The notes beneath the pieces were generated by a model. It ran no database searches. It was not told the origin of the DNA and saw only the letters and a program-made list of their open reading frames with translations. This document shows positions 16,523 through 38,966 of a stretch of 64,000 bases of DNA, in pieces. How positions within the stretch are numbered: the stretch's first letter is position 1; each line of letters begins with the position of its first letter. Position numbers and translations under genes: made by a program. Source of the DNA: an uncultured Clostridia bacterium (GTDB lineage Bacteria > Bacillota > Clostridia > TANB77 > CAG-508); assembly GCA_934167165.1 (NCBI GenBank), contig CAKPKG010000001.1, positions 29,282 to 93,281 of the forward strand, in the 5' to 3' direction.

Positions 16523-16537
16523 ATTAGGAGGAAACAA

Positions 16538-16888
16538 ATGAAAAAAGAAAGAGGAATAACTTTAGTTGCATTAATAGCAACAGTAATAGTAATGTTAATT
16601 CTTTTAACAGTAACAGTGACTGTGTCTGTTAAAAAAGGAGGACTAGTAGATACATCAAGAGAAGCTGCAGATTCTACAAGAGCGCTTGAAGTTGATAAAG
16701 CTAAAGAATTATGGTTAATGGAAAAAGAAGAAGATGAAGATGATGGAGTAGAAGCTAAATCTTTAAAAGAACTATTAACAGAATTGCAAGACCAGGAATT
16801 GCTTACAAAAGAAGAGGCACAAACAATAGAAGCAACAGGAACAATAACAATAGCAGGAAGAACAATAACATTTTCAAGAGATGAATAA
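16538..16888 (+). CDS. small pilin-like protein (class III signal-like N-terminus KERGITLVALIATVIV, no Glu5)
   Basis: N-terminal prepilin-like hydrophobic helix followed by an acidic, coiled C-terminus. Confidence 0.45.
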   Translation: MKKERGITLVALIATVIVMLILLTVTVTVSVKKGGLVDTSREAADSTRALEVDKAKELWLMEKEEDEDDGVEAKSLKELLTELQDQELLTKEEAQTIEATGTITIAGRTITFSRDE

Positions 16889-19243: not shown

Positions 19244-21462
19244 ATGTTTCAAAATTTATCAGATGAAAATCAAGAAGAATATATAGAAGAACAAAACGAA
19301 GAGATAGAAAACAAAAAGAAAATTAATCTTAAAGAATTATTTTCAATATCTAATATAATTTTATATGCAATATCATTTATGGCATCAATGGTCAGCTTTG
19401 GAGGAGAATTTGCTCCATTTGGACTGGCAATATTTGCAGCAGTATGTAGCAATGAAATACCATCAGGGCTAGTATACATTTTTGCGGGAATAGGTACACT
19501 TATAGGTTTTGGGCCAGGTGGATTTTTATCGTACTTATTGAGTTCATTAATATTTATAGCATTGCTATTAATATTTAAACCTAAAAGAAGATATCCAGCT
19601 AGAAATGAGAAGCAAAAACTAGGCTTTTATGTTTTTATTTCTACTCTTATAGTACAAGCTGGCAAAATGTTTTTTACAATGTTTTTAGTATATGACCTAT
19701 TGGCAAGTATTGTTTTTGCCTTAATATCATATATGTTTTATAAGATATTTACAAATTCAATTACAGTTGTAAAAGAATACGGAAAAAAGATGGCATTTAC
19801 AGTAGAAGAGGTAATGGGAGCAAGTTTATTAGTATCAATTGCTTTATATTCTTTACATGGATTAAAAGTATTTGGATTATCAATTAGTAATATATTAAGC
19901 ATAATGTTGGTATTATTCCTAGGTTGGAAAAATGGGATGTTAGTAGGAGCTACATCTGGTATAACAATAGGAATGGTTTTGGGAATAATTGGATCAAGCA
20001 GTCCAGTGTTAGTTGCATCTTACGCAATATCTCGGAATGTTTGCAGGAATGTTAAACAAATTAGGAAAAATAGGAGTTATAGTAGGATTTTGTTTGGGAA
20101 ATGCAATACTTACATATGTTGCAAATGGGAATACAATAGCAGTAATTACAATAAGAGAAATATTAATAGCTTCGTTAGGATTATTATTAATACCTAAAAA
20201 TGTAAATATAGATATTTCAGATATTGTTGGAAAAACAAAGCTTTTACCAGTAACAGGTGGAGCTCTAAATGAAGGAACCAAAACAGCAGAAAAATTAAAT
20301 ACAGTTTCAGAAACAATTTCGGAAATAGCAAGAAGCTATCAAGAAGTTGCGGCAACAACAGTGGAAACAGAAGAAGAGCTTGAAAAAGAGGCAAAAAAAC
20401 AATTTAGAGAAGAATTATTAAATAATTTAGAAGATTTTTCAGATAATTTACTTTATGAAGATTTTATGGAAATGGAAGATGACTTATTAGACAATATATA
20501 CGAAGTGCTAGAAAAAGATGAAGAAATAAACAAAGAAAAGCTATTAGAGTTATTGGAAACCAACAATAACTATATAATTGGGTTAGATAATGAAGAGACT
20601 AAAAAAGAAATAGAAGATAATTTAGAGCAAATAGCAAAAACAATAAATCATACATATAGAATAAATAAGCTAAATTTAGTATGGAAACAAAGAGAAGCAA
20701 GCAATAAAAAAACTTTAGCAAATCAATTAGGTGGAGTTTCAAAAGTAATATCTTCATTAGCAGATGACATAGAAGAAAAAGAAGAAAAGAAAAAAGAAGA
20801 AATTAAGTTTAATTTAAAAATAACATCAGCAAAAGTAACAAAAAGTAAAAGCGAAGTATCAGGAGATACAAGCATACAAACTAAACTACATGATGGAAAA
20901 TTTATGATGGCAATAAGTGATGGAATGGGATCACGGGCCAAGAGCTAAAAAAAGTAGTTCAACAGTTATAAAAATGCTAGAAAGATTATTAAAAACAGGA
21001 TTTGATAAAGATGTTTCAATAGGACTAATAAATTCATCTGTTAACTTAAATTCAAATGAAGAAACATATGCAACAATAGACATATCTGTTTTTAATAGAA
21101 ATACAGGAAATATAGAATTTGTAAAAAATGGCGCATGTCCAACATTTATAAAATCAAAAAACAAAGTAGAAGTAATAAAAGCTATATCATTACCAGCAGG
21201 AATTGTAGACAAAATAGACCTAGTAGTATATGACAAGGATTTAAAAGGTGGAGAAATTGTTGTAATGTGCAGTGATGGAATATTAGAATCTAACCAAGAG
21301 CTAGAGAATAAAGAATTATGGGTAAAAGATATGTTAGAGAACATAGAAACAGATGATGTTCAAAAAATAGCCGATATAGTATTACAAGAAGCAATAGACA
21401 ATGATTATGGAATACCAAAAGACGACATGACAGTACTAGTTGCAAAAATTGAGAAAATATAA
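19244..21462 (+). CDS. spoIIE: stage II sporulation protein E (membrane PP2C phosphatase); two in-frame CGGR sites
   Basis: About 10 N-terminal TM segments and a C-terminal PP2C domain (ISDGMGSG.RAK). Sites at 20033 (CGGA) and 20934 (CGGG). Confidence 0.75.
20033..20036 (+). other. in-frame CGGA in the SpoIIE TM region (AIS-G-MFAGML)
   Basis: Joins the 19244 ORF and the 20013 ORF. Confidence 0.65.
20934..20937 (+). other. in-frame CGGG at the SpoIIE PP2C motif DGMGS-G-PRAK
   Basis: Joins the 20013 ORF and the 20917 ORF. Confidence 0.7.
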
Positions 21463-21605
21463 AATTTGTCAAAAAGTATTTACAAAATTTGAAAATATGT
21501 TATAATAAAAATAGGAAATGGAGAACCACAAACGTGGTTTGCCAGTCTTTTGTGAAGAACACATCTAACTGCCAAGTTTACAGATGTGTTTTTTGTTGGA
21601 AATAA
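21463..21605 (+). promoter_or_regulatory. duplicated promoter and small-RNA module, copy 1 (starts at the spoIIE stop codon)
   Basis: aatttgtcaaaaagtatttacaaaa...tataat promoter, transcript ggagaaccacaaacgtggtttgcc..., terminator aacacatct..agatgtgtttttt. Near-identical copy at 44682. Confidence 0.5.
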
Positions 21606-21694
21606 AAGTCAATAAAAATTGCCAAAAAAACAACAAAAAATATAATATATAAATAATTGACAAAAGAGTAAAAAAATTATAAAATATAATACAG

Positions 21695-23650: not shown

Positions 23651-23760
23651 GTAAAATGGAAGTGTGCGGTGTGATGTGGGAAGTGTGATTTATAGGACTA
23701 AGGCTTCGCAGGCCTTTCTCTATTCTTCTCACTTCTCACTTCGCACTTCGTGAAAACCCA
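23651..23760 (+). repeat. purine-rich GAAGTG/GTGAGGTG-type intergenic repeat (copy R1)
   Basis: ggaagtgtgcggtgtgatgtgggaagtgtg ... ctattcttctcacttctcacttcgcacttcg. Inverted copy at 38222, related copies at 45395 and 52545. Confidence 0.6.
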
Positions 23761-26550: not shown

Positions 26551-27936
26551 TTAAAAATCACAATTTTTTGGAGTTCTTGAGAATGGAATTACATCTCTAA
26601 TATTTTGCATACCTGTTAAATACATCATCATTCTTTCAAAGCCCAATCCAAAACCTGCATGTCTTACACTACCATATTTTCTTAAATCCAAATACCACCA
26701 ATAGTCTGATTCTTTCATTCCTAATTCCTTTATTTTGGCTTTTAAAACGTCTAAATTGTCTTCTCTTTGACTACCACCAATTATTTCTCCAATTCCAGGA
26801 GCTAAAAGGTCAGCTGCTGCAACAGTTTTGCCATCTGGGTTTTGTTTCATATAAAAGGCTTTTATTTCAGCTGGATAATCTGTTACAAATACAGGTTTTT
26901 TAAATAATACTTCACATAGATATCTTTCATGTTCTGTTTGTAAATCAGACCCCCAATGAACTGGAAATTCAAATTTATCATTGTTTTTTTCTAATTCTTT
27001 AATTGCATCAGTGTATGTTATTCTTGCAAAGTCAGAATTTATAACATTATTTAGTTTTTCAAATAAACCTTTGTCTATAAAGTTATTAAAAAATTCCATT
27101 TCTTCTGGACAGTTGTCCATTACATATTTAATAATATATTTAACCATATCTTCAGCTAAATCCATATCATCTTTTAGGTCTGCAAAACATATTTCTGGTT
27201 CAATCATCCAAAATTCAGAAGCGTGTTTTACTGTATTTGAGTTTTCTGATCTAAATGTAGGACCAAATGTATAAACATTTCTAAATGCAAATGCAAATGT
27301 TTCTACATTTAATTGACCACTTACAGTAAGATGAGCAGGTTTACCAAAAAAGTCTTTTGAATAGTCAACATTACCATCTTCTGTTTTAGGTAGGTTATTC
27401 AAATCAAAAGTATTTACGTTAAACATTTCTCCAGCACCTTCACAGTCACTAGAAGTAATTATTGGTGTATGAACGTACACAAATCCTCTTTCTTGAAAGA
27501 ATTTATGAATTGCATATGATAAAACAGAACGTACTCTAAATACTGCATTAAAAGTATTTGTTCTAGGTCTTAAATGTGAGATTGTTCTTAAATATTCAAA
27601 AGAATGTCTTTTCTTTTGTAAAGGATAATCTAAATCAGAAGCAAATTCTAAATCTACTTTGTTTGCTTTTATTTCAAAAGGCTGTTTTGCACCTTCTGTT
27701 CTTACAAATGTTCCTGTAACTTTTATTGATGAACTAAGTGGTAATTTGCAAAGATCATCAAAATTATCTAAAGTGTTATCAAAAACAATTTGAATGTTTT
27801 TAAAAAAACTTCCATCATTTAATTCTATAAAACCAAAAGTTTTAGAATCTCTAATTGTTTTTACCCAACCTTCTACAACAATTTCCTTTCCTTCATATTT
27901 GCTCATGTCTGAAAATAAGTCTTTAATAATTTCCAT
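26551..27936 (-). CDS. asnS: asparaginyl-tRNA synthetase
   Basis: 461 aa. N-terminal anticodon-binding OB fold and class IIb catalytic core. Confidence 0.8.
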
Positions 27937-27961
27937 AAGAAACCCTCCTTTTTATATTAGC

Positions 27962-28071
27962 AAAGGGATGCAAGAAAAGTGGCTTTGCCATGCTTTTCTT
28001 CTCGCCGATTTGAGTTCCCAAATGAAATAAGGAAACCTCAAAGGCAATAGCGATTATAGCATTTTTGTTGA
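27962..28071 (-). promoter_or_regulatory. conserved roughly 90-nt leader element (copy 1) in the asnS 5' UTR, downstream of the T-box
   Basis: The minus strand reads tgctataatcgctattgcctttgaggtttccttatttcatttgggaactcaaatcggcgagaa plus hairpin plus SD. Copies at 30576 and 34068. Confidence 0.55.
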
Positions 28072-28084
28072 ATATGAAAAATCT

Positions 28085-28330
28085 TTGATTTTTTTTATTC
28101 AACAAAAAAAGCCCTCTGCAAACTGCAGGGACGAAAATAATTTCCGCGGTACCACCCTAACTTAAAAATCATAAAATGATTTTTCTCTCTATTGATGTGC
28201 TTCCAATGTGTTTCGTATAGCAATGTTCGCTAAAAGGGCTTTCAGCCTATGACCCTTATTCTCTAATAGTAACTTATTGCAACTTTGCATTGTACTAACG
28301 CACTTATATAATATTTTTTATTTTACAATA
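28085..28330 (-). promoter_or_regulatory. T-box riboswitch leader of asnS
   Basis: Minus-strand aagttagggtggtaccgcgg T-box motif, terminator ccctgcagtttgcagaggg plus Ts, promoter TTGACA-18-TAAAAT near 28335-28362. Confidence 0.75.
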
Positions 28331-28426
28331 GTATTGGCTATTTTGTCAATCATTATTAAAAAATAAATACTTTCTTTTATTTTTTTATTTAATGTGTTAA
28401 TATAATACTGTAAAAAGGAGGTTACC

Positions 28427-29542
28427 ATGCCAAATATAATTGATTATATAGAATGGAGGGGAGACTTAAGTTTTGAGAACTCTCCAATAAATGAAATAGA
28501 TGATATTATTTTTGCTAGATTTTCATATTTACCATTCAAATGTATAAATTTATCTGAAATTGACACTATTGAAAACATCGCATTAAAAATGAAAGAACTG
28601 GACATAGCTAATTATTTGTGGGAAGATGATAAAAATTTTATTCAAAAAATAGGAAATTGTAGAAGATTTAAAGATATAAAAGTTTCTGATTATATAGAAA
28701 TTTTTGATAAGGCTGCAGAAAAACAATTTGCAGCTATAACACTATGGATTCAGGAGAACAGAAAATACATATCTTTTAGAGGAACAGATTCATCTCTTGT
28801 CGGATGGAAAGAAGATATAAATATGGGATTTAAAAAAGATGTTCCATCACAAAAAGAAGCTGTTAAATACTTAAATTCAATGGCAGAAAAATATAAAGAA
28901 AAACTTATTGTAGGGGGCCATTCTAAAGGAGGAAATCTAGCAGTTTATTCGGCAGTATTTTGTAAGGATAGTGTTAAAAATAGGATTGAAAGAGTTATAA
29001 ATGCAGATGGACCAGGGTTTGACGAAAGTGTAATTTTAACCGAGAACTATAAGAAAATATTAGATAAAATCCAAACTTATATACCACAATCCTCAATAGT
29101 TGGAAGATTACTAGAGCACAAAGAAGAATATCAAGTAGTAAAAAGCATTCAAAAGGGAATTATGCAACACGATATATATTCATGGGAAATTGAACCTACA
29201 AAGTTAATTAGAATACCAACTGTTACAAATAATAGTGAGATTTTTAATGGAATAGTAAGTGATTGGCTTACGAATACAACACCAGAACAAAGAGAGAATT
29301 TTATAAATATAATATATGATATAATAATGGAAACACAGGCCCAAAAAACTAGTGATTTTAGAGTAGAAACAGCAAAAAAAATAGGTATAATTCTAAGCGG
29401 ATATATGAATGTAAATCCAGAAGATAAAAAAGAAATTGAGCATATGGTAAAATTAATAGTTGAAAGTACATTTAAGATTTTAAAAGAAAATAGGAATGCG
29501 AATAAGCTTATAGAAAAGGAAAAGAAACAAAAAAATAAATAA
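28427..29542 (+). CDS. alpha/beta-hydrolase, DUF2974/Mbeg1-like (lipase-like GHSKGG motif)
   Basis: IVGGHSKGGNLAVYSA nucleophile elbow, 371 aa. Confidence 0.5.
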   Translation: MPNIIDYIEWRGDLSFENSPINEIDDIIFARFSYLPFKCINLSEIDTIENIALKMKELDIANYLWEDDKNFIQKIGNCRRFKDIKVSDYIEIFDKAAEKQFAAITLWIQENRKYISFRGTDSSLVGWKEDINMGFKKDVPSQKEAVKYLNSMAEKYKEKLIVGGHSKGGNLAVYSAVFCKDSVKNRIERVINADGPGFDESVILTENYKKILDKIQTYIPQSSIVGRLLEHKEEYQVVKSIQKGIMQHDIYSWEIEPTKLIRIPTVTNNSEIFNGIVSDWLTNTTPEQRENFINIIYDIIMETQAQKTSDFRVETAKKIGIILSGYMNVNPEDKKEIEHMVKLIVESTFKILKENRNANKLIEKEKKQKNK

Positions 29543-29556
29543 GGGAGAAAAGTTTT

Positions 29557-30441
29557 ATGAATGTTAGCTTAGATTGGTATAAAATATTTTATGAAGTAGC
29601 AAAAAAACAGAATATAACAGTAGCAGCAGAAAACTTGTGCATTTCTCAACCAGCAGTTAGTCAAACAATAAAACAGCTAGAAGAAAGTCTAAATGCAGAA
29701 TTGTTTTTAAGAACAAAAAAAGGAGTAACTTTAACTAAAGAAGGAGAGGTATTATATTCATATATCTCGGAAGCAATGGAAAAAATTAAGTTGGGAGAGG
29801 CAAAAGTTTTAGAGCAAGTTAATTTGGAAAGTGGAGAAATAAGAATAGGTTCAAGTGATATGTGTTTGCAATTTTTTTTGCTTCAATACTTAGAAGAATT
29901 TCAAAAAATATATCCTAAAATCAAGATAAGTATTACAAATGGACCTACACCAGAAACTATAAAACTTTTAAAAGAAGACAAAATAGATTTTGGTTTGGTA
30001 AGTGAACCATTTGAACTAGAGGAAAAATTTAAAGCAATAGAAGTATGTAAAATTAAAGATATATTTGTTTGTGGTGAAAAATATAAAGATTTATCAAAAC
30101 AAAAAGTGAGCTTAAAAGAACTAGAAAAATATCCATTAATATGTTTAGAAGAGCATACAAGTACAAGAAAATACATAGACGAAAAATTTAAAGAGAATAA
30201 TGCAGAATGCAATCCAAAATATGAGCTTGCAACAAGTAATTTAATAGTAGATTTTGCTAAAAGAAATTTTGGAATTGGAGTTGTAGTTGATAAATTTGCA
30301 GAAGAAAAATTAGAAAATAAAGAAATATACCAGATTAATATAAAAGAAAAGATAGAACCAAGAAATATATGTATAATAAAGAAAGATAAGTTAATATCAA
30401 AAGCTTCAAATGAATTGCTTAAATTTATTATCAATAAGTAA
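29557..30441 (+). CDS. LysR-family transcriptional regulator
   Basis: N-terminal HTH (AAENLCISQPAVSQTIKQLEESLNAELF) and a LysR substrate-binding domain. Confidence 0.75.
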   Translation: MNVSLDWYKIFYEVAKKQNITVAAENLCISQPAVSQTIKQLEESLNAELFLRTKKGVTLTKEGEVLYSYISEAMEKIKLGEAKVLEQVNLESGEIRIGSSDMCLQFFLLQYLEEFQKIYPKIKISITNGPTPETIKLLKEDKIDFGLVSEPFELEEKFKAIEVCKIKDIFVCGEKYKDLSKQKVSLKELEKYPLICLEEHTSTRKYIDEKFKENNAECNPKYELATSNLIVDFAKRNFGIGVVVDKFAEEKLENKEIYQINIKEKIEPRNICIIKKDKLISKASNELLKFIINK

Positions 30442-30500
30442 GACTTATTGATACCATAAATAATATATATTTTACTTATATAAAGAAAGGCGTTAAAATA

Positions 30501-30572
30501 GATAATGTAGTAAGAATTCTACATTATCTATTTTTTATATACTAGGAAATTTCTCATTTCCTAGTATATAAA
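30501..30572 (+). terminator. two tandem perfect-palindrome terminators
   Basis: gataatgtag..ctacattatc plus T6, and tatatactaggaaat..atttcctagtatata plus A/T run. Confidence 0.55.
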
Positions 30573-30575
30573 AAA

Positions 30576-30665
30576 TGCTATAATCGCTATTGCCTTTGAG
30601 ATTTCCTCATTACATTCGGAAACTCAAATCGGCGAGAACAAAGGGCGACTAAAGTCGCTTTGTTA
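30576..30665 (+). promoter_or_regulatory. conserved roughly 90-nt leader element (copy 2) forming the purA 5' UTR
   Basis: TGcTATAAT -10 box, then cgctattgcctttgagatttcctcattacattcggaaactcaaatcggcgagaa, hairpin caaagggcgac..gtcgctttg abutting the SD AGGAGG. Confidence 0.55.
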
Positions 30666-30678
30666 GGAGGTAATATTT

Positions 30679-31950
30679 ATGGTAAGTGCAATTGTTGGAG
30701 GAAACTGGGGAGACGAAGGAAAAGGAAAGATGTGTGATATCTTATCAAAAGATGCAGATGTAGTTATTAGATTTCAAGGAGGAGCAAATGCAGGACATAC
30801 AATAGTAAATGAATATGGAAAAACTGCTTTACACATGTTACCATCAGGAATTTTTAGACAAGATGTTATAAATGTAATTGGACAAGGAGTTGCTTTTGAT
30901 ATCAATGCATTCTTTGAAGAGCTAGAATCTGTTAAAGAAAAAGGAATGAAAAATCCAAACATAGTTATTTCAGATAGAGTTCAAATATTAATGCCATATC
31001 ATATTAAATTAGATGAGTTAGAAGAGCAAAGATTAGGAAAAGCAAGTTTTGGTTCAACAAAATCAGGAATTGCACCATTCTATTCTGATAAATACGCAAA
31101 AATAGGAATACAAATTTCAGAGATATATGATGATGAGCACTTAAAAAATAGGCTAACAAATATTTTAACTGCAAAAAATAAAATAATATCAGCTTTATAT
31201 GGAGAAGAAAATCAAGTAGATATTGAAGAGATGTATGAATTCTTGATAAACTCAAGAGATAAACTAAAACCATATTTATGCAATGTAGTTAAATTAGTAA
31301 ATGAAAAAATAAAAGAAAATAAAAATATAATAATAGAAGGACAATTAGGAACATTAAGAGATATAGACAATGGAATATATCCATTTACAACTTCATCTTC
31401 ACCACTTGCAGGATTTGGAGCAGTGGGAGCAGGTATTCCACCTTATGAAATTAAAAAGATATATACAATAGTAAAAGCATATTCTACATGTGTTGGAGCA
31501 GGAGCCTTTACAACAGAAATATCTGGAGAAGAAGCAAAAGAATTAAGAGATAGAGGCGGAGAATATGGAGCAAAAACAGGAAGACCAAGAAGAGTAGGTT
31601 GGTTTGATACAGTTGCAACAAGATATGGGTGTATGGTACAAGGAGCAACAGATGTTGTTTTGTCATTAGTAGATGTATTAGGATATCTTGACAAAATACC
31701 AGTATGTACAGCATACGAAATTGATGGAAAAATAGTAAAAGACTTTCCAACTACAATAGAATTAAACAAAGCAAAACCAGTATATGAATATTTGGATGGT
31801 TGGAAATGTGATATAAGCAATATTAAAAAATATGAAGACTTACCAGAGAATACAAAAAAATATATTGAATTTATAGAAAAGAAAATAGAACGCCCAATAA
31901 AAATAATAGGAAACGGACCTAGAAGAGAAGATATAATTGTGTGCAAATAA
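30679..31950 (+). CDS. purA: adenylosuccinate synthetase
   Basis: GGNWGDEGKGK P-loop, GGANAGHT, 423 aa. Confidence 0.9.
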   Translation: MVSAIVGGNWGDEGKGKMCDILSKDADVVIRFQGGANAGHTIVNEYGKTALHMLPSGIFRQDVINVIGQGVAFDINAFFEELESVKEKGMKNPNIVISDRVQILMPYHIKLDELEEQRLGKASFGSTKSGIAPFYSDKYAKIGIQISEIYDDEHLKNRLTNILTAKNKIISALYGEENQVDIEEMYEFLINSRDKLKPYLCNVVKLVNEKIKENKNIIIEGQLGTLRDIDNGIYPFTTSSSPLAGFGAVGAGIPPYEIKKIYTIVKAYSTCVGAGAFTTEISGEEAKELRDRGGEYGAKTGRPRRVGWFDTVATRYGCMVQGATDVVLSLVDVLGYLDKIPVCTAYEIDGKIVKDFPTTIELNKAKPVYEYLDGWKCDISNIKKYEDLPENTKKYIEFIEKKIERPIKIIGNGPRREDIIVCK

Positions 31951-31954
31951 AAGC

Positions 31955-32016
31955 GACGAATGGGGACAGACCCCTTTTGTTTAATTTAAAACAAAAGGGG
32001 TCTGTCCCCATTTGTG
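31955..32016 (+). repeat. REP-like palindromic pair (family 2: caaaaggggtctgtccccatttg) immediately after the purA stop
   Basis: gaatggggacagaccccttttg, 12-nt spacer, caaaaggggtctgtccccatttg. Likely also the purA terminator. Confidence 0.65.
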
Positions 32017-32079
32017 CCTTTAAAATATTGATACACTCAAATGCGTATGATATAATGCACTCAAAGGAGTTGAAAGACT

Positions 32080-32826
32080 TTGGGCAGAAACAAAAGAAAT
32101 AAAAATATAAGTACAAAAAAGGCAATATATGTTTTAATTATTTTTGCAATTATAACTGTATTTACATATTGGAATGAAAAAAACGATTATAATTCGAAAA
32201 ACATACAAAATAGTGAAAATACCTTTGGAAAAACCACATATTCTACCTTACAAGACATACCAGAATATAATGGGGAAATATGTGTAATGATAAATGAAAA
32301 CAAACCATATTTTACTGAGGCAGATTATAGTACAGAAGTTTTCGAGAATTACAGCGATTTAGATTATTTACAAAGGTGTGGGGTAGCTTACGCAAATATA
32401 TGTAAAGAAATAATGCCACCAGAAGGAGACGAAAGAGGAGACATTAGCTCTATTTATCCAACAGGATGGAAACAAGCAAAATTTAATGGAGAATATTTAT
32501 ATAATAGGTGCCATTTAATAGCTCATAGCCTTTCAGATGAGGACGCAAATAAACAGAACTTAATTACAGGGACAAGATATTTTAATGTTCAAGGAATGTT
32601 GCCAATTGAAAGATTAGTGCTTGAATATATGAATAAAAATCAAAATAATCATGTTCTTTATAGAGTTACTCCTATTTTTAAAGGAGAGAATCTTTTAGCA
32701 ACTGGAGTAGAAATGGAAGCATATTCTGTAGAAGACAATGGAAAACTATCCTTTAATGTGTTTATTTACAACATACAACCAGGAGCAAATATTAATTATA
32801 CAACAGGAGAATTGTTAAACAATTAG
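32080..32826 (+). CDS. membrane-anchored DNA/RNA non-specific endonuclease (NucA/EndA-like)
   Basis: N-terminal TM segment. NRCHLIAHSL corresponds to the DRGHL active-site motif. Confidence 0.6.
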   Translation: MGRNKRNKNISTKKAIYVLIIFAIITVFTYWNEKNDYNSKNIQNSENTFGKTTYSTLQDIPEYNGEICVMINENKPYFTEADYSTEVFENYSDLDYLQRCGVAYANICKEIMPPEGDERGDISSIYPTGWKQAKFNGEYLYNRCHLIAHSLSDEDANKQNLITGTRYFNVQGMLPIERLVLEYMNKNQNNHVLYRVTPIFKGENLLATGVEMEAYSVEDNGKLSFNVFIYNIQPGANINYTTGELLNN

Positions 32827-32933
32827 TTGACAAATTATGTAAAAAAATATATAATCGCTCTAAATTTAAGTCTTTTTACTATATTTCTATAGTAAATTTC
32901 CTAAGAAAAACAAAAACTTAAATAGGAGAGTGA

Positions 32934-33617
32934 TTGTTATTGAGATTAGATTTTATTAATAACATAGTTAATAATGCAAAAAACAATAAATTTTTTCTAG
33001 AGGAGTTACAAAATAGCATAACAAAAAACAAATATTTTAATAGTGAAAAGGAGGATATACCTTTGACTAATCCTACTTATAGTGGAAATAGAATAATTAC
33101 AAAATATAGAGACAAAATGCTTATTGAGAGAGCTAACATCTTAAATAATTATGCAAAACAAACATTAAATAAAGGAGAAATGTATTACATATATAGTAAA
33201 AATTCTAAAATTATAGATGACTATAACTTATGTATCTGTAGAGAAGGAATGAGTTACACTATTATAGAGATAAATAAAGCCAACCTACCAAACGAAGCTA
33301 AAATAGGAAGTGTGTTAAGAAAATTTGGTAATAGCTACATACTGGATGAAGAAGCAACCAAAGAGGTTGAAGAAAAAATATATAACATGAAAGCTGAATT
33401 ATTAAAAGAACAAACGGAATATTTAAAAAGCAAAAGAATGGAAGGGCATATTTATGAAATGTCAGAAAATAATGGAGACAGAGCATGGCTATTTGATATT
33501 ACAAGTGGCAGTAATGAAGGCGTAGAAGAAATAGATTTTGATATAGATTTGTTGAAAACTATTAAAGAAGGAGATTTATTTATATACAAAAATGGGAAAT
33601 ATCAAAAATACCAATAG
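32934..33617 (+). CDS. hypothetical protein
   Basis: 227 aa with no recognisable motif. Confidence 0.3.
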   Translation: MLLRLDFINNIVNNAKNNKFFLEELQNSITKNKYFNSEKEDIPLTNPTYSGNRIITKYRDKMLIERANILNNYAKQTLNKGEMYYIYSKNSKIIDDYNLCICREGMSYTIIEINKANLPNEAKIGSVLRKFGNSYILDEEATKEVEEKIYNMKAELLKEQTEYLKSKRMEGHIYEMSENNGDRAWLFDITSGSNEGVEEIDFDIDLLKTIKEGDLFIYKNGKYQKYQ

Positions 33618-33652
33618 GTGCCAATGCCAAAAGGGACGGGGAATTTTGGCAC
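33618..33652 (+). repeat. degenerate REP-like hairpin related to the IS200/RAYT ends
   Basis: gtgccaatgccaaaagggacggggaattttggcac shares the gggacgg core and flanking inverted arms. Confidence 0.4.
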
Positions 33653-33739
33653 AATGAAATAGCAATAAAATAAAATTCATAAACACACCTCTGTGCGAAT
33701 ACAATTAAACAAATGTATTCGTATGGAGGTTTTGCTTTT

Positions 33740-34006
33740 ATGAGAGGAGTTTCAATAGAAGAAAGAGCAGTAGCTCTAGCACAATATATAATAGATTCAA
33801 AAGATACAGTACGTGGAGCAGCTAAAAAATTTGGAATTTCAAAGTCAACAGTACACAAAGACGTAAGTGAAAGGCTAATACATATAAATCATGCATTAGC
33901 AATAGAAGTTAGAAAAGTATTAGACGAGAATAAGGCGGAAAGGCACATAAGAGGAGGAATGGCTACTAAATTAAAATATAGCCATGAAAAAGATATAGCA
34001 GGTTAA
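33740..34006 (+). CDS. spoIIID: stage III sporulation protein D (SpoIIID transcription factor)
   Basis: IEERAV.LAQYII, KSTVHKDV.ERL, RHIRGG.ATKLKY. Start at 33740 behind GGAGG, not at 33713. Confidence 0.8.
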   Translation: MRGVSIEERAVALAQYIIDSKDTVRGAAKKFGISKSTVHKDVSERLIHINHALAIEVRKVLDENKAERHIRGGMATKLKYSHEKDIAG

Positions 34007-34067
34007 TATAAAAACGTAAATTTATTTATTAAATAAAAATTCCAAGAAAGTTTCTTGGAATTTTTTT

Positions 34068-34165
34068 ATATACTATAATCGCTATTGCCTTTGAGATTTC
34101 CTCATTTCATTCAGAAACTCAAATCGGCGAGAAGAAAAGTGTGGCAAATCCACTTTTCTTGTGCT
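34068..34165 (+). promoter_or_regulatory. conserved roughly 90-nt leader element (copy 3), convergent on a small minus-strand gene
   Basis: TATAAT, then cgctattgcctttgagatttcctcatttcattcagaaactcaaatcggcgagaag, then hairpin gaaaagtgtggcaaatccacttttc. Confidence 0.5.
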
Positions 34166-34167
34166 TA

Positions 34168-34326
34168 CTAGAAATTATTTCTTCTTTGTTGTTTTCTTGC
34201 TTTTCTACATTCTGGGCATCTTACAGGATCATTTTCAAATCCTTTTTCTGCATAAAAAGCTTGTTCACCTTCTGTGAAAACAAATTCAGCACCACAATCT
34301 TTGCATGTTAATGTTTTGTCTGCCAT
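34168..34326 (-). CDS. small zinc-ribbon protein (52 aa, CxxC-x25-CxxC), missing from the ORF track
   Basis: MADKTLTCKDCGAEFVFTEGEQAFYAEKGFENDPVRCPECRKARKQQRRNNF with SD GGAGG 8 nt upstream. Confidence 0.6.
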   Translation of the reverse strand: MADKTLTCKDCGAEFVFTEGEQAFYAEKGFENDPVRCPECRKARKQQRRNNF

Positions 34327-34549
34327 TGTATAATACCTCCTTCTTAGAAATTCTAATTTAATTATTTTGACACAAATGATCCTATCTAAAAAGAAGGGTA
34401 AAAGTCTCTAATAAATTAAATCGGTTGGGCTTTACAACCATTCACAGTATAACATTAAAAAAAATAAAAAACAATAGTAAAGAAAAATAAAATAACGCAC
34501 ATTTCGCCAAAAAGCGACATAAGATATATTAGCCAAAAATTTTTTTGAG

Positions 34550-38221: not shown

Positions 38222-38345
38222 TAGATAAATTGTAATTTTGCGAAGTGTGAAGTGTGAGGTGAGAAGTGCGAAGAATAGGGAAAGGACTACGAAGCTTTGG
38301 CCCTATAAATCACACTTCTCACCTCACATTTCACACTTCAAAATA
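38222..38345 (+). repeat. purine-rich GAAGTG-type repeat, copy R2 (inverted relative to R1)
   Basis: cgaagtgtgaagtgtgaggtgagaagtgcgaagaatag ... cacacttctcacctcacatttcacacttc. Confidence 0.6.
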
Positions 38346-38426: not shown

Positions 38427-38966
38427 ATGGCAGATTTAAAAGGAACAAAAACAGAAAAAAATTTAATGCAAGCTTTTGCAGGAGAATCACAAGCAAGAAA
38501 TAAATATACATATTTTGCTAGCAAAGCAAAAAAAGAAGGGTATGAACAAATAGCAGCAATATTCCAAGAAACAGCAGATAATGAAAAAGAACATGCAAAA
38601 ATGTGGTTTAAATTATTAAACAATGGAATATCATCAACAGCAGAAAATTTGAAAGCTGCAGCAGAGGGGGAAAATTTTGAATGGACAGATATGTATGACA
38701 AAATGGCACAAGAAGCAAGAGAAGAAGGATTTGATCACATAGCTGATTTGTTTGAAGGTGTAGCAAAAATAGAAAAAGAACATGAAGAAAGATATAAAAA
38801 ACTACTAGAAAATCTAGAAAACGGATTAGTATTTAGCAAAGATGGAGATAAGATTTGGAAATGTAGAAATTGCGGACATATATGTGTTGGAAAAGAAGCA
38901 CCAGAGGTATGCCCAGTATGTGCACATCCAAGAGCATATTTTGAAATTAAAGCAGAAAATTATTAA
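38427..38966 (+). CDS. rbr: rubrerythrin
   Basis: Ferritin-like diiron domain (two E..H pairs) and a C-terminal rubredoxin-like CRNCGH...CPVC. Confidence 0.85.

What the first reader, a model, noticed from the sequence alone, without database searches (positions are those of the whole stretch)
27962..34165. Conserved roughly 90-nt promoter-proximal RNA element in three copies: 5' UTRs of asnS and purA and after spoIIID
Each copy starts with a TGnTATAAT -10 box followed by cgctattgcctttgagRtttcctYatttcattYRgRaactcaaatcggcgagaa, which folds into a conserved stem (gcc-tttgag / ctcaaa-tcggc) around a variable 22-nt loop. Each then has a copy-specific hairpin directly against the downstream SD (asnS, purA) or a converging gene (34168..34326). 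In asnS the element lies between the T-box terminator and the RBS, so two leader devices are stacked. The stem is conserved while the loop varies, which points to RNA-level function such as attenuation or binding of a protein or sRNA. Two of the three downstream genes use aspartate or asparagine, hinting at a shared signal.
Basis: seen in the sequence. Interest (0 to 1): 0.6.

Follow-up and report, generated by a model that had tools for sequence, protein, structure and literature searches.

The report
Mobile repeat that lands behind terminators
The three look-alike "leaders" are copies of a roughly 130-base mobile repeat, found at least 127 times in the DNA sampled from uncultured gut Clostridia, that inserts directly behind transcription-terminator hairpins, so its position before asnS and purA reflects where it lands and not a shared amino-acid switch.

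Summary
Three about 90% identical copies lie at 27970-28103 (-), 30537-30664 (+) and 34068-34161 (+); chance expects none.

The interpretation as a shared Asp/Asn leader does not hold. The unit is one member of a dispersed, modular repeat family of about 130 nt:
- H0, an AT-rich palindrome
- an A-run, then TGnTATAAT-CGCTATT
- H1, a bulged hairpin
- H2, a symmetric terminator-like hairpin

I found at least 127 copies in about 0.8 Mb sampled from dozens of uncultured gut Clostridia MAGs. They sit next to unrelated genes. Nothing matches in Rfam.

Copies lie almost always in intergenic DNA, in a fixed orientation, directly after the T-run of a resident intrinsic terminator or leader hairpin.

Related genomes give clean empty sites. 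asnS relatives at 96-97% identity and purA relatives at 85-86% identity keep the same promoter, hairpin and T-run, which then run straight into the RBS. There are no target-site duplications, no terminal inverted repeats and no linked ORF.

H1 and H2 show strong compensatory variation, so structure is selected. Whether it acts as RNA or as single-stranded DNA is unresolved.

The embedded extended -10 box may fire and may feed downstream genes. That is inferred, not shown.

Verdict: a new member of the small interspersed-repeat kind, with unusual homing to terminators.

The parts
27970..28103 (-). Copy 1, a full unit of about 134 nt, inserted between the T-run of the asnS T-box terminator and the asnS RBS region
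   Evidence: Boundaries come from the filled/empty alignment with L125 and L126, whose AsnS is 96-97% identical and whose neighbours are the same (alignment A5). CM hit 27966-28067, 91.5 bits.
28067..28103 (-). Copy 1, module H0: AT-rich palindrome, type B (GTTGAATAAAAAAAATCAAAGATTTTTCATATTCAAC). Its stem is extended by pairing of the target T-run (28104-28110) with the element's A-run.
   Evidence: Sequence. RNAfold of 27968-28112 gives MFE -45.1 kcal/mol, z -5.76. 97 of 106 family copies carry such a palindrome at a fixed distance.
28053..28061 (-). Copy 1, extended -10-like box TGCTATAAT. The scan pairs it with a weak -35, TTTTCA, at 16-nt spacing.
   Evidence: Family conservation: G(-14) 0.89; hexamer T .93, A .89, T .66, A .95, A .90, T .94.
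28004..28045 (-). Copy 1, module H1: GCC / UUUGAG / bulged G / UUUCC / internal loop / apical 2 bp and triloop / GGGAA / CUCAAA / UC bulge / GGC
27971..28001 (-). Copy 1, module H2, type B: symmetric A-tract/GC-core/T-tract hairpin (AAGAAAAGCAUGGC-AAA-GCCACUUUUCUU). It looks like a terminator on both strands.
   Evidence: The terminator scan flags it on the opposite strand at 27979-27991.
30537..30664 (+). Copy 2, a full unit of about 128 nt, inserted between the T-run of the purA leader hairpin and the purA RBS (AGGAGG, 30665-30670)
   Evidence: Filled/empty comparison with L130 and L131, whose PurA is 85-86% identical. There the same promoter, hairpin and T-run are followed directly by GGAGG. 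CM hit, 114.6 bits.
30537..30569 (+). Copy 2, module H0, type A (ATATACTAGGAAATTTCTCATTTCCTAGTATAT)
   Evidence: fold z -8.08.
30576..30584 (+). Copy 2, extended -10-like box TGCTATAAT
30592..30633 (+). Copy 2, module H1
30636..30664 (+). Copy 2, module H2, type A (GAACAAAGGGCGAC-UAAA-GUCGCUUUGUU)
   Evidence: Flagged as terminator-like on the minus strand at 30658-30645.
34068..34161 (+). Copy 3, directly after the spoIIID terminator (hairpin 34040-34060, T-run 34061-34067). H0 is reduced to ATATA by an internal deletion. H2 ends 7 nt before the stop codon of the converging zinc-ribbon gene (34168-34326, minus strand).
   Evidence: The same copy is present in L097 and L102. A full copy with H0 occupies the same intergenic site in L041, where flank identity is 77%.
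34087..34128 (+). Copy 3, module H1
34131..34160 (+). Copy 3, module H2, type B
28104..28135 (-). Target of copy 1: the T-box terminator hairpin and its T-run. This is resident sequence, not part of the element.
   Evidence: Rfam T-box alignment. The same terminator and T-run occur without the element in L125-L127.
30471..30536 (+). Target of copy 2: the native purA promoter (TTTACT-17-TAAAAT, 30471-30499), the leader hairpin (30501-30528) and its T-run (30531-30536). This is resident sequence.
   Evidence: Promoter scan. Conserved in the empty sites L130 and L131.
52528..52562 (+). Solo H0 module, type B, directly after the terminator of the rpsR-like gene. The orthologous site in L003 carries H0 type A, the core and H2; L088 carries a full unit directly after its own, unrelated terminator downstream of the orthologous gene.

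Best explanation
The three copies belong to a family of small, non-autonomous, modular interspersed repeats of about 130 nt. The family is specific to a clade of uncultured, low-GC gut Clostridia related to 'Clostridium sp. CAG:452'; the two assemblies labelled as chromosomes are 1.6-1.7 Mb.

The unit is H0 (AT-rich palindrome), an A-run, TGnTATAAT-CGCTATT, H1 (a bulged hairpin with invariant unpaired bases), GAGAA, and H2 (a symmetric terminator-like hairpin).

Shown:
- The unit is an insertion. It lands in one orientation immediately 3' of the T-run that follows a resident hairpin. That hairpin can be a gene's intrinsic terminator, the T-box terminator of asnS, or the purA leader hairpin.
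- It has no target duplication, no terminal inverted repeats and no coding capacity.
- It is polymorphic between close relatives, and it decays in place.
- Its presence in the asnS and purA 5' UTRs is therefore a by-product of target choice, not a shared regulatory device.

Inferred:
- After insertion the target T-run pairs with the element's A-run and extends H0. This suggests target recognition by base pairing in a single-stranded intermediate, by a mechanism in the style of HUH/Y1 transposases or of reverse splicing. The mobilising enzyme is unknown.
- Most copies carry a near-consensus extended -10 box about 7 nt before H1. If it fires, it would give a transcript that begins with a 5'-terminal stem-loop (H1) and either ends at H2 or reads through it.
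- Where a gene follows at once, the element then becomes part of that gene's 5' UTR, or its promoter. In asnS and purA this would place a promoter downstream of the native attenuator hairpin.
For: Census:
Nearly all are uncultured gut Clostridia MAGs, with many per MAG.
- 136 nhmmer hits and 127 CM hits in the sampled loci, including truncated and degenerate copies.
- 2 predicted viral contigs carry the element.

Not a known RNA: nothing in Rfam at gathering threshold or at E up to 10.

Insertion shown by empty sites:
- asnS: L125, L126 and L127 share the promoter, leader terminator and T-run, then continue straight into the RBS region.
- purA: L130 and L131 behave likewise.
- The rubrerythrin-like gene at 38427-38966 has a bare terminator in the window but a full element in L114 and L087.
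- In the window and L003 the same rpsR terminator carries different H0 types; L088 has a full element behind its own terminator at the orthologous site.

Target:
- 72 of 116 copies have a G+C-containing hairpin with at least 5 T in 8.
- In 63 of them the stem ends 55-69 nt before H1.
- Only 7 of 317 control windows have such a hairpin.
- The terminator stems are unique to each locus.

Orientation: the upstream gene is co-oriented in 81 of 103 copies. Counts are (same,same) 57 and (opp,opp) 11; convergent 24 and divergent 11 (one search is similar).

No linked gene: flanking ORFs cluster only as orthologues.

Structure selected: covariation statistics, and conserved unpaired bases in H1 at 0.91 or above.

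Promoter-like box: the conservation profile fits an extended -10. 15 of 121 copies have SD and start codon within 45 nt of H2. In L031 and L099 the left arm of H2 runs into an RBS, GAGAACAAAGGAGG.
Against: - No transposase, reverse transcriptase or other mobilising gene could be tied to the element.
- The two Y1 (REP-associated-type) transposase genes in the window are flanked by a different hairpin, TGTCAATGGGGACGGAGTTTTTTGACA.
- H0 and H2 do not resemble each other, unlike the two ends of IS200/IS605 elements.
- Copies occupy the same intergenic site in species whose flanks are only about 72-82% identical (spoIIID, the rpsR-like gene, the rubrerythrin-like gene). This could mean long-term retention under selection, that is a host function, and not repeated homing.
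- Promoter activity is not shown. One subfamily (GCTAAACGC...) lacks the -10 consensus. A constitutive promoter downstream of the asnS T-box would defeat that T-box.
- Mismatches in H1 show no G.U excess over A.C (16 against 15). H1 folds slightly better on the antisense strand. So an RNA-level role for H1 is not supported by strand asymmetry; only H2 favours the sense strand.
Confidence: 0.8

Rival explanations
1. Dedicated cis-regulatory leader RNA (attenuator or riboswitch-like) sensing an Asp/Asn- or purine-related signal in the 5' UTRs of asnS and purA.
For: Two of the three window copies lie between a leader hairpin and an RBS. The hairpins covary.
Against: - At least 127 copies sit next to unrelated genes, with no neighbour-family enrichment.
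- Most copies follow the 3' end of a gene, and 35 of 103 face a converging gene.
- asnS relatives at 96-97% identity and purA relatives at 85-86% identity lack the element but keep their own promoter and leader hairpin.
- asnS relatives at 85-92% identity have neither a T-box nor the element.
Confidence: 0.03
2. A multi-copy small-RNA gene. Each copy would be a self-contained transcription unit (extended -10, H1, H2 as terminator) making an RNA of about 75 nt. That RNA would act in trans, for example through the C/U-rich apical region of H1 (UUUCCUC / CCUCCUUU, which resembles an anti-Shine-Dalgarno sequence), or would serve the element's own propagation.
For: - TGnTATAAT lies about 7 nt before H1, and H2 is a G+C-core hairpin followed by UUUGUU or UUUUCUU.
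- H2 is more stable on the sense strand in 90 of 111 copies whose two strands differ in stability.
- The unpaired bases of H1 are highly conserved, as expected for a recognition surface.
- In converging contexts, 14 of the 28 copies that face an opposing gene have H2 ending within -6 to +13 nt of that gene's end, so it would close both transcripts.
Against: - There are no expression data.
- The C/U-rich segment is largely base-paired inside H1.
- H0 and the promoter box would lie outside the RNA yet are part of the mobile unit.
- One subfamily lacks the -10 consensus.
- H1 shows no G.U over A.C tolerance.
- H2 must be leaky, because asnS and purA have to be transcribed through it.
Confidence: 0.15
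3. A domesticated transcription-punctuation module. The host would keep the unit behind terminators as a back-up bidirectional terminator (H2) plus a restart promoter, or as an RNA-stability element.
For: - Fixed position behind terminators.
- H2 is terminator-like on both strands.
- H2 ends at the stop codon of converging genes.
- The same intergenic sites are occupied in diverged species while the flanks are unalignable.
- The -10 hexamer is retained somewhat better than its flanks in old copies: 0.73 against 0.63-0.65.
Against: - Presence or absence varies between close relatives, with no sign of compensation.
- Decayed and truncated copies are common.
- Different H0 types sit behind the same terminator in related genomes, which indicates independent arrivals.
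- Insertion inside attenuator-controlled leaders is hard to see as beneficial.
Confidence: 0.15
4. A double-stranded DNA site for a host protein, such as a nucleoid protein, a regulator, or a replication or segregation factor. The palindromes would be dimer-binding sites and not folded strands.
For: H0 and H1 show no strand asymmetry, whether in G.T against A.C mismatches (H1) or in sense against antisense folding energy (H0). H0 is a near-perfect palindrome sitting over the -35 position of the -10-like box.
Against: - The arms of H0, H1 and H2 change by compensatory substitutions while the loop and bulge bases stay fixed. This is the signature of a folded strand and not of a conserved half-site.
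- H1 has asymmetric bulges that a dimer site would not need.
Confidence: 0.05

Closest known systems
Pneumococcal small interspersed repeats BOX, RUP and SPRITE (Croucher et al. 2011, PMC3049150)
   Same: - Short, non-coding, multi-copy and intergenic in a Firmicute.
- Modular: BOX has A, B and C modules; here the modules are H0, linker, H1 and H2.
- Strongly folded.
- Orientation mirrors the coding bias.
- Enriched downstream of genes.
- SPRITE resembles a Rho-independent terminator, and H2 does too.
- Can alter the expression of neighbouring genes.
   Different: - No sequence similarity was detected; Rfam holds nothing for this element.
- BOX and RUP have terminal inverted repeats and are thought to be moved by IS transposases. 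This element has neither TIR nor TSD.
- It joins precisely to the T-run of a resident terminator.
- It carries a consensus extended -10 box.
REP/BIME elements and REPINs mobilised by REP-associated tyrosine transposases (RAYT). Statements about these elements rest on my own knowledge.
   Same: - Extragenic palindromes combined with other motifs in mosaics.
- Mostly at the 3' ends of genes.
- Hairpins recognised as single strands.
- No TSD.
- A RAYT-like gene pair is present in this very window (5150-5827 and 8526-9173).
   Different: - The RAYT genes here are flanked by a different hairpin, of the GGGGACGG type.
- The element is a fixed four-module unit of about 130 nt and not a palindrome of 20-40 nt.
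- No conserved unpaired GTAG sits at a hairpin foot.
IS200/IS605-family derivatives (palindrome-associated transposable elements). Statements about these elements rest on my own knowledge.
   Same: - No TIR and no TSD.
- Hairpins at both ends.
- Strictly oriented insertion 3' of a short target on one strand.
- Target-element base pairing is part of the mechanism. Here the analogue would be T-run:A-run pairing.
   Different: - The end hairpins H0 and H2 do not resemble each other.
- They are terminal and not sub-terminal.
- No cognate tnpA or tnpB lies next to any copy.
Class C bacterial group II introns, which insert after intrinsic terminators (Robart, Seo and Zimmerly 2007, recalled from memory)
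   Same: The target is the DNA just downstream of a Rho-independent terminator stem-loop, in the sense orientation.
   Different: Those are ribozymes of 0.7-2 kb, usually with a reverse-transcriptase ORF. This unit is about 130 nt and has no Rfam hit, neither to group II intron families nor to any other family.
Neisseria Correia elements and ERIC elements, cited in PMC3049150
   Same: Small repeats that can create promoters, terminators or RNase sites next to host genes.
   Different: Correia elements have TIRs and TA duplications and are found in Proteobacteria. There is no sequence relation.

Membership tests
Any Rfam 15 family (riboswitch, leader, sRNA) | Covariance-model match at or near the gathering score | tested here: not met
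   At gathering threshold the whole window gives only a tRNA. With E up to 10 over 27800-34400, nothing overlaps H1 or H2, and only chance-level microRNA-model hits (E 0.23-9.5) touch the H0 palindromes and the spoIIID terminator. The T-box next to copy 1 is a separate, resident feature.
   Flanking ORFs of 136 copies form only small orthologue clusters. 15 of 121 copies abut a gene start. 35 of 103 face an opposing gene.
   Absent from asnS leaders at 96-97% protein identity. Absent from purA leaders at 85-86%.
MITE (derivative of a DDE-transposase IS) | Terminal inverted repeats | tested here: not met
   Left ends (ATATACTAGG / GTTGAATA / TGTAATAGG) and right ends (...GCTTTGTTC / ...CTTTTCTTG) are not complementary.
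MITE (derivative of a DDE-transposase IS) | Target-site duplication | tested here: not met
   The filled/empty alignments at asnS and purA show no duplicated bases at the junctions.
REP/REPIN with a RAYT | The same palindrome flanks a single-copy RAYT gene in inverted orientation | tested here: not met
   The RAYT-like genes at 5150-5827 and 8526-9173 match Pfam Y1_Tnp. They score 78.8 bits against NCBIfam REP_Tyr_transpos, just below the cut-off of 80. They are flanked by TGTCAATGGGGACGGAGTTTTTTGACA, which resembles none of H0, H1 or H2. Other RAYT paralogues elsewhere in the genome could not be examined.
IS200/IS605-type element (single-strand 'peel and paste') | No TIR, no TSD, and oriented insertion 3' of a short conserved target | tested here: met
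   Junctions lie directly after a T-run. Strong orientation bias.
IS200/IS605-type element (single-strand 'peel and paste') | Similar sub-terminal hairpins at both ends, bound by one TnpA, and a cognate tnpA | tested here: not met
   H0 is AT-rich with arms of about 15 bp. H2 has a G+C core of 5 bp with A/T tracts. They are dissimilar and terminal. No transposase lies next to any copy.
Small structured interspersed repeats of Firmicutes (BOX/SPRITE-like kind) | Short, non-coding, multi-copy, intergenic, modular, stably folded, and variable between strains | tested here: met
   This is a kind defined by behaviour, not a homology family.
Independent sRNA gene | Own promoter and own terminator | tested here: inconclusive
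   Sequence-level matches only. One subfamily lacks the -10 consensus.
Independent sRNA gene | A discrete transcript | not testable with these tools
   No transcriptome data are available for these uncultured organisms.
Class C group II intron | Group II ribozyme domains, about 0.7 kb or more | tested here: not met
   The unit is about 130 nt. No Rfam intron hit.

The most novel reading that the evidence does not exclude
The element is a new type of minimal mobile DNA that homes to intrinsic terminators. Its A-run would base-pair with the terminator's T-run in a single-stranded DNA or RNA-DNA intermediate. H1, with its invariant bulges, would be the handle for an as yet unidentified trans-acting enzyme. 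Because it carries a portable extended -10 promoter and a 5' stem-loop, each hop behind an attenuator hairpin, as at asnS and purA, would rewire a regulated gene to constitutive expression.
Probability: 0.15. Interest if true: 0.7.

Novelty: new member of a known kind. Interest (0 to 1): 0.4.

Why it matters
For annotation, this removes a false riboswitch or leader candidate and explains why two "leader devices" appear stacked before asnS. The second is an insertion that targets the terminator of the first.

For biology, it documents a repeat family that I could not find described, in an abundant but uncultured gut clade. Its insertion rule is unusually precise: immediately after the T-tract of a terminator-type hairpin, in one orientation, without duplication.

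Such elements can add promoters, terminators or stable 5' structures to host genes, and they can split attenuators from the genes they control. They are also useful strain markers.

If the homing mechanism proved to be new, it would interest the mobile-DNA field. It might also be exploitable for site-directed insertion behind terminators.

Tried and rejected
1. Strand test for RNA against DNA. Unbiased counts in H1 gave G.T 16 against A.C 15. Sense-minus-antisense folding energy was nil for H0, favoured the antisense strand for H1, and favoured the sense strand for H2. The test is inconclusive. An earlier count was biased by my scoring and another was misregistered; both are discarded.

2. Search for a linked mobilising gene by clustering all flanking ORFs. 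Only orthologue groups emerged.

3. tblastn with the window's Y1 transposase against all fetched loci. No hits outside the window.

4. A possible extra hairpin within GCTATAATCGCTATTGC. The commonest variants (TACAAT, TGAAAT) break it without compensation, so I rejected it.

5. asnS homologues at 85-92% identity, used to look for empty sites. They have neither a T-box nor the element and so do not inform on boundaries. Homologues at 96-97% gave the answer.

6. My first inference that purA has no promoter other than the element's was wrong. The empty sites show a native promoter upstream of the leader hairpin.

7. Literature. I found no description of this family. The element's core strings (GCCTTTGAG, CTCAAATCGGC and their RNA spellings) are absent from the 200 searchable supplementary files, of 408, of the human-microbiome structured-RNA survey PMC8040213.

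8. No similarity in the GenBank phage or PLSDB plasmid collections.

9. RNAalifold on the MAFFT alignment recovered only H1, because H2 has indels between its types. I supplied a hand-drawn structure to the covariance model instead.

Full report

Yes. The window holds three related stretches. They appear as arms 27971-28062 / 34070-34161 (92 nt, 90% complementary) and 27976-28066 / 30571-30661 (91 nt, 84%). They also appear as the direct repeat 30575-30642 / 34070-34137 (94%). TTGCCTTTGAG-N22-CTCAAATCGGC matches exactly three times, against 0.00 expected in dinucleotide shuffles.

The T-box in front of asnS is genuine although below Rfam's gathering score (28124-28307 minus strand, 55.7 bits, E 2e-10). 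Copy 1 lies between its terminator and the asnS RBS.

Copy 3 has TACTATAAT and not TGnTATAAT.

**2. Anatomy**

It has these parts, in order:

- H0, an AT-rich near-perfect palindrome of about 35 nt. Type A is TATATACTAGGAAATTTCTCATTTCCTAGTATATA. Type B is TTGAATAGGAAAAATCGAAGATTTTTCTATTCAA. Further types exist.
- A run of about 5 A.
- TGCTATAAT-CGCTATT.
- H1, made of: GCC, UUUGAG, a bulged A, UUUCC, an internal loop UC/UC, two apical pairs closing a triloop, GGAAA, CUCAAA, a UC bulge, and GGC.
- GAGAA.
- H2, a symmetric hairpin with an A-tract, a G+C core and a T-tract. It is GAACAAAGGGCGAC-TAAA-GTCGCTTTGTTC or AAGAAAAGTGTGGC-AAA-GCCACTTTTCTT.

97 of 106 copies have the H0 palindrome at a fixed distance. 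Copy 3 has lost it through an internal deletion: TTTTTTTATATA|CTATAAT.

RNAfold recovers the three hairpins. H0 is extended by pairing of the upstream T-run with the element's A-run. The z-scores are -5.8, -8.1 and -2.5.

**3. Is the structure selected?**

I built a covariance model from 105 copies with a hand-drawn structure. It finds 127 copies in 807 kb of fetched loci plus the window. On its alignment:

- 95.4% of cells pair, against 85.5% in shuffles.
- 21 of 28 pairs carry changes on both sides.
- The covariation score is 0.273, against 0.100 in shuffles (0 of 500 reach it) and at most 0.064 for slid registers.

An alignment fitted to the model leans towards the structure. An independent, anchor-based count shows the same exchanges. 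For example, one inner H1 pair is CG 34 / GC 10 / TA 12, and one apical pair is CG 24 / AT 33.

The unpaired bases of H1 are conserved at 0.91-0.99 while paired positions vary. That is typical of a specific recognition hairpin.

**4. RNA or DNA?**

Unresolved.

- H1 mismatches are G.T 16 against A.C 15.
- H0 folds equally well on both strands.
- H1 folds slightly better on the antisense strand.
- H2 folds better on the sense strand, 90 copies against 21.

Equal G.T and A.C counts are what neutral decay of dead copies would give. They do not support RNA-level selection on individual copies.

**5. Known family?**

Nothing in Rfam 15 matches the element, at gathering threshold or at E up to 10. 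There is no similarity in GenBank phages or PLSDB plasmids.

I found no description in the searchable literature. The element's core strings (GCCTTTGAG, CTCAAATCGGC and their RNA spellings) are absent from the searchable part of the supplements of a large survey of human-microbiome structured RNAs.

**6. Census and host range**

About a dozen are chance hits in high-GC genomes. All the rest are uncultured gut Clostridia MAGs from human (including Hadza), rabbit and mouse samples. They include 'Clostridium sp. CAG:452' and two assemblies labelled as chromosomes, of 1.57 and 1.70 Mb.

Several MAGs give more than 10 copies in the sampled pieces alone.

The window is 98.4% identical to MAG HGM13686 and 96.5% to CAG:452 over shared segments.

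nhmmer adds 23 diverged, truncated or degenerate copies. Two IMG/VR contigs carry full units.

Relatives whose AsnS is 85-92% identical have essentially none in about 20 kb around asnS. The family is therefore clade-specific.

**7. Where the copies sit**

Of 127 CM hits, 8 overlap a crude ORF call, 16 lie at a locus edge and 103 are intergenic with both neighbours visible:

| Upstream gene / downstream gene, relative to the element | Copies |
|---|---|
| same / same | 57 |
| same / opposite (convergent region) | 24 |
| opposite / same (divergent region) | 11 |
| opposite / opposite | 11 |

(the pattern-only set gives 53 / 18 / 7 / 8).

So the element follows a co-oriented gene in 79% of cases. 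Convergent regions are favoured over divergent ones. That is the opposite of what a promoter-proximal device would show.

72 of 116 copies have a G+C-containing hairpin followed by at least 5 T in 8. In 63 of them the stem ends 55-69 nt before H1, which means it directly abuts H0. Only 7 of 317 control windows have such a hairpin. These terminator stems differ at every locus, so they are resident targets and not part of the repeat.

Flanking genes are heterogeneous; they include an S18-like gene, spoIIID, purA, a rubrerythrin-like gene and an SMC-like gene. No family recurs beyond orthologues.

Only 15 of 121 copies have a co-oriented SD and start codon within 45 nt of H2.

**8. Proof of insertion: filled and empty sites**

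(a) asnS. Contigs L125, L126 and L127 have AsnS 96-97% identical. L126 and L127 have the same Mbeg1-like, LysR and topA neighbours. All three share the window's promoter and leader terminator. Then they read ...GCAGAGACATTTTTT|ATATTTATTTGCTATTAAGGGGG..ATG. The window reads ...GCAGAGGGCTTTTTTT|GTTGAATA...[134 nt]...CTTTTCTTGC|ATCCCTTTGCTAATATAAAAAGGAGGG..ATG.

(b) purA. L130 and L131 (PurA 85-86% identical, with a LysR gene upstream) have a TTTACT...TGATATAAA promoter, the hairpin AATAATGTAG...CTACATTATT and a T-run, followed at once by GGAGG. In the window the element sits exactly between that T-run and AGGAGG. purA therefore keeps its own promoter (window 30471-30499) upstream of the leader hairpin. 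My earlier assumption that the element had to be its promoter was wrong.

(c) The gene at 38427-38966 ends in a bare terminator in the window. L114 and L087 have a full element behind their own terminators.

(d) Behind the rpsR-like gene, the window and L003 share one terminator, followed by a solo H0 of type B in the window (52528-52562) and by H0 type A, the core and H2 in L003. L088 has a full element behind its own terminator. These are independent arrivals at one site.

(e) Behind spoIIID the element is present in the window, L097 and L102. It is also present, with an intact H0, in L041. There the gene is only 77% identical and the flanking intergenic DNA is unalignable, yet the element is still about 90% identical.

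No junction shows a target duplication or terminal inverted repeats.

**9. What follows for the finding**

All three window copies obey one rule: a hairpin, then a T-run, then the element. The hairpin is the T-box terminator, the purA leader hairpin or the spoIIID terminator.

The "stacking of two leader devices" at asnS is an insertion that used the first device's terminator as its landing pad.

The link to aspartate or asparagine is coincidental.

**10. How it most likely works**

Shown:
- It is a non-autonomous repeat that has inserted recently enough to be polymorphic among near relatives.
- It inserts orientation-specifically after terminator-type T-runs.
- Its hairpins are maintained by compensatory change at the family level.
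- It decays in place.

Inferred:
- The A-run next to H0 is complementary to the target T-run. This suggests recognition of the target by base pairing in a single-stranded intermediate. The sense strand of genes co-oriented with replication is the lagging-strand template, so a single-strand Y1/HUH-type mechanism would fit the orientation bias.
- The window encodes two RAYT-like Y1 transposases, but their flanking hairpins are different. The mobilising enzyme remains unknown.

Also inferred, on the -10-like box:
- Its conservation profile looks like a real extended -10 (G-14 0.89; T .93, A .89, T .66, A .95, A .90, T .94).
- It is kept somewhat better than its flanks in old copies (0.73 against about 0.64).
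- In L031 and L099 the left arm of H2 has become the RBS of the next gene, GAGAACAAAGGAGG.

So the element probably can drive, or at least be part of, downstream transcripts. H1 would sit at the very 5' end, and H2 would act as a leaky terminator on both strands.

Against a universal promoter role:
- One subfamily lacks the consensus.
- A third of copies face converging genes.
- A constitutive promoter behind the asnS T-box would cancel that T-box.

**11. Comparison with known systems**

It behaves like the small structured interspersed repeats of other bacteria. These include BOX, RUP and SPRITE in pneumococci (PMC3049150), REP/BIME mosaics, ERIC and Correia elements.

It is not a MITE in the strict sense, because it has no TIR and no TSD.

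It shares the no-TIR, no-TSD, oriented-insertion logic of IS200/IS605 derivatives. It does not share their paired, similar end hairpins or a cognate transposase.

Its choice of target recalls class C group II introns (from my own knowledge), but it is far too small and has no ribozyme.

**12. Verdict**

The regulatory interpretation is not upheld, except for the point that the hairpins are structurally constrained.

The feature is a previously unrecorded member of a known kind, with an unusually precise terminator-homing rule. It is of moderate interest.

Noticed in passing
window 5150-5827 (-) and 8526-9173 (-); hairpins at 5120-5146, 5931-5965, 8477-8502, 9279-9313, 203-229 and 33625-33651: There are two near-identical genes for a Y1 (IS200-like) transposase. 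They match Pfam Y1_Tnp and score 78.8 bits against NCBIfam 'REP-associated tyrosine transposase', whose cut-off is 80. Each is flanked by inverted copies of a REP-like hairpin, TGTCAATGGGGACGGAGTTTTTTGACA. There are 6 copies of the hairpin in the window against 0.08 expected, and it also occurs in other fetched loci. This is a separate RAYT/REP-type system in the same genome.
   Followed up: partly
window 23659-23749, 38242-38339 and 52565-52640; also next to the element in L003, L033 and L045: A second dispersed repeat family forms long hairpins whose arms are strings of GAAGTGTGA / TCACACTTC-like units around a central G+C-rich loop (I2 and I6). It often lies beside the element or beside a solo H0, so the intergenic regions of this genome are mosaics of several repeat modules.
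   Followed up: partly
window 28124-28307 (-), compared with L125:430-657 and L126:1190-1512: The asnS T-box is intact in the window. Strains with 96-97% identical AsnS keep the promoter and the terminator but lack the T-box body (stem I through the GGUGGUACCGCG box), and give no Rfam hit. That leaves a leader terminator with no visible antiterminator. Relatives at 85-92% identity have no T-box at all.
   Followed up: partly
window 30471-30536; L130:1380-1512; L131:1370-1512: purA has a conserved short leader: a promoter, then a hairpin of about 28 nt and a T-run that ends 0-1 nt before the RBS. This is a candidate attenuator with no Rfam match. It is present with or without the repeat.
   Followed up: no
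window 52528-52562: A solo H0 palindrome, type B, lies directly after the terminator of the rpsR-like gene. The same site carries full elements in L003 and L088; clustering of the upstream ORFs groups L021 with them. Solo H0 modules are rare: my detector found 8 palindromes away from any core, but only 2 or 3 of them are true H0 modules, against 67 next to a core.
   Followed up: yes
L122:3580-3800 and L124:420-640 (IMG/VR contigs): Two contigs classed as viral carry complete elements. In L124 an H0 module lies on both sides. I did not examine whether these are real phages or host fragments.
   Followed up: no
window 49932-51259: Three tandem copies of a unit of about 517 nt, 82-97% identical, lie inside the ORF at 49440-51272. 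This suggests a protein with repeated domains (D1, D3, D4).
   Followed up: no
window 21457-21524 / 44676-44743, 21597-21653 / 45019-45075 and 16536-16599 / 46620-46683: Pairs of 57-68 nt repeats, 80-84% identical, include TTTACA...TATAAT promoter-like stretches. One pair encodes similar hydrophobic N-termini (MKKERGITLVALIATVIVML...), suggesting duplicated upstream and 5' regions of paralogous genes (D12, D17, D20).
   Followed up: no
window 26551-29553, compared with L031:4080-4234: In the related MAG CAKOVK (92-93% identity in the flanks), the whole asnS / T-box / Mbeg1-like segment of 3 kb is absent. Its place is taken by one diverged copy of the element between the upstream gene and the LysR gene.
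   Followed up: partly
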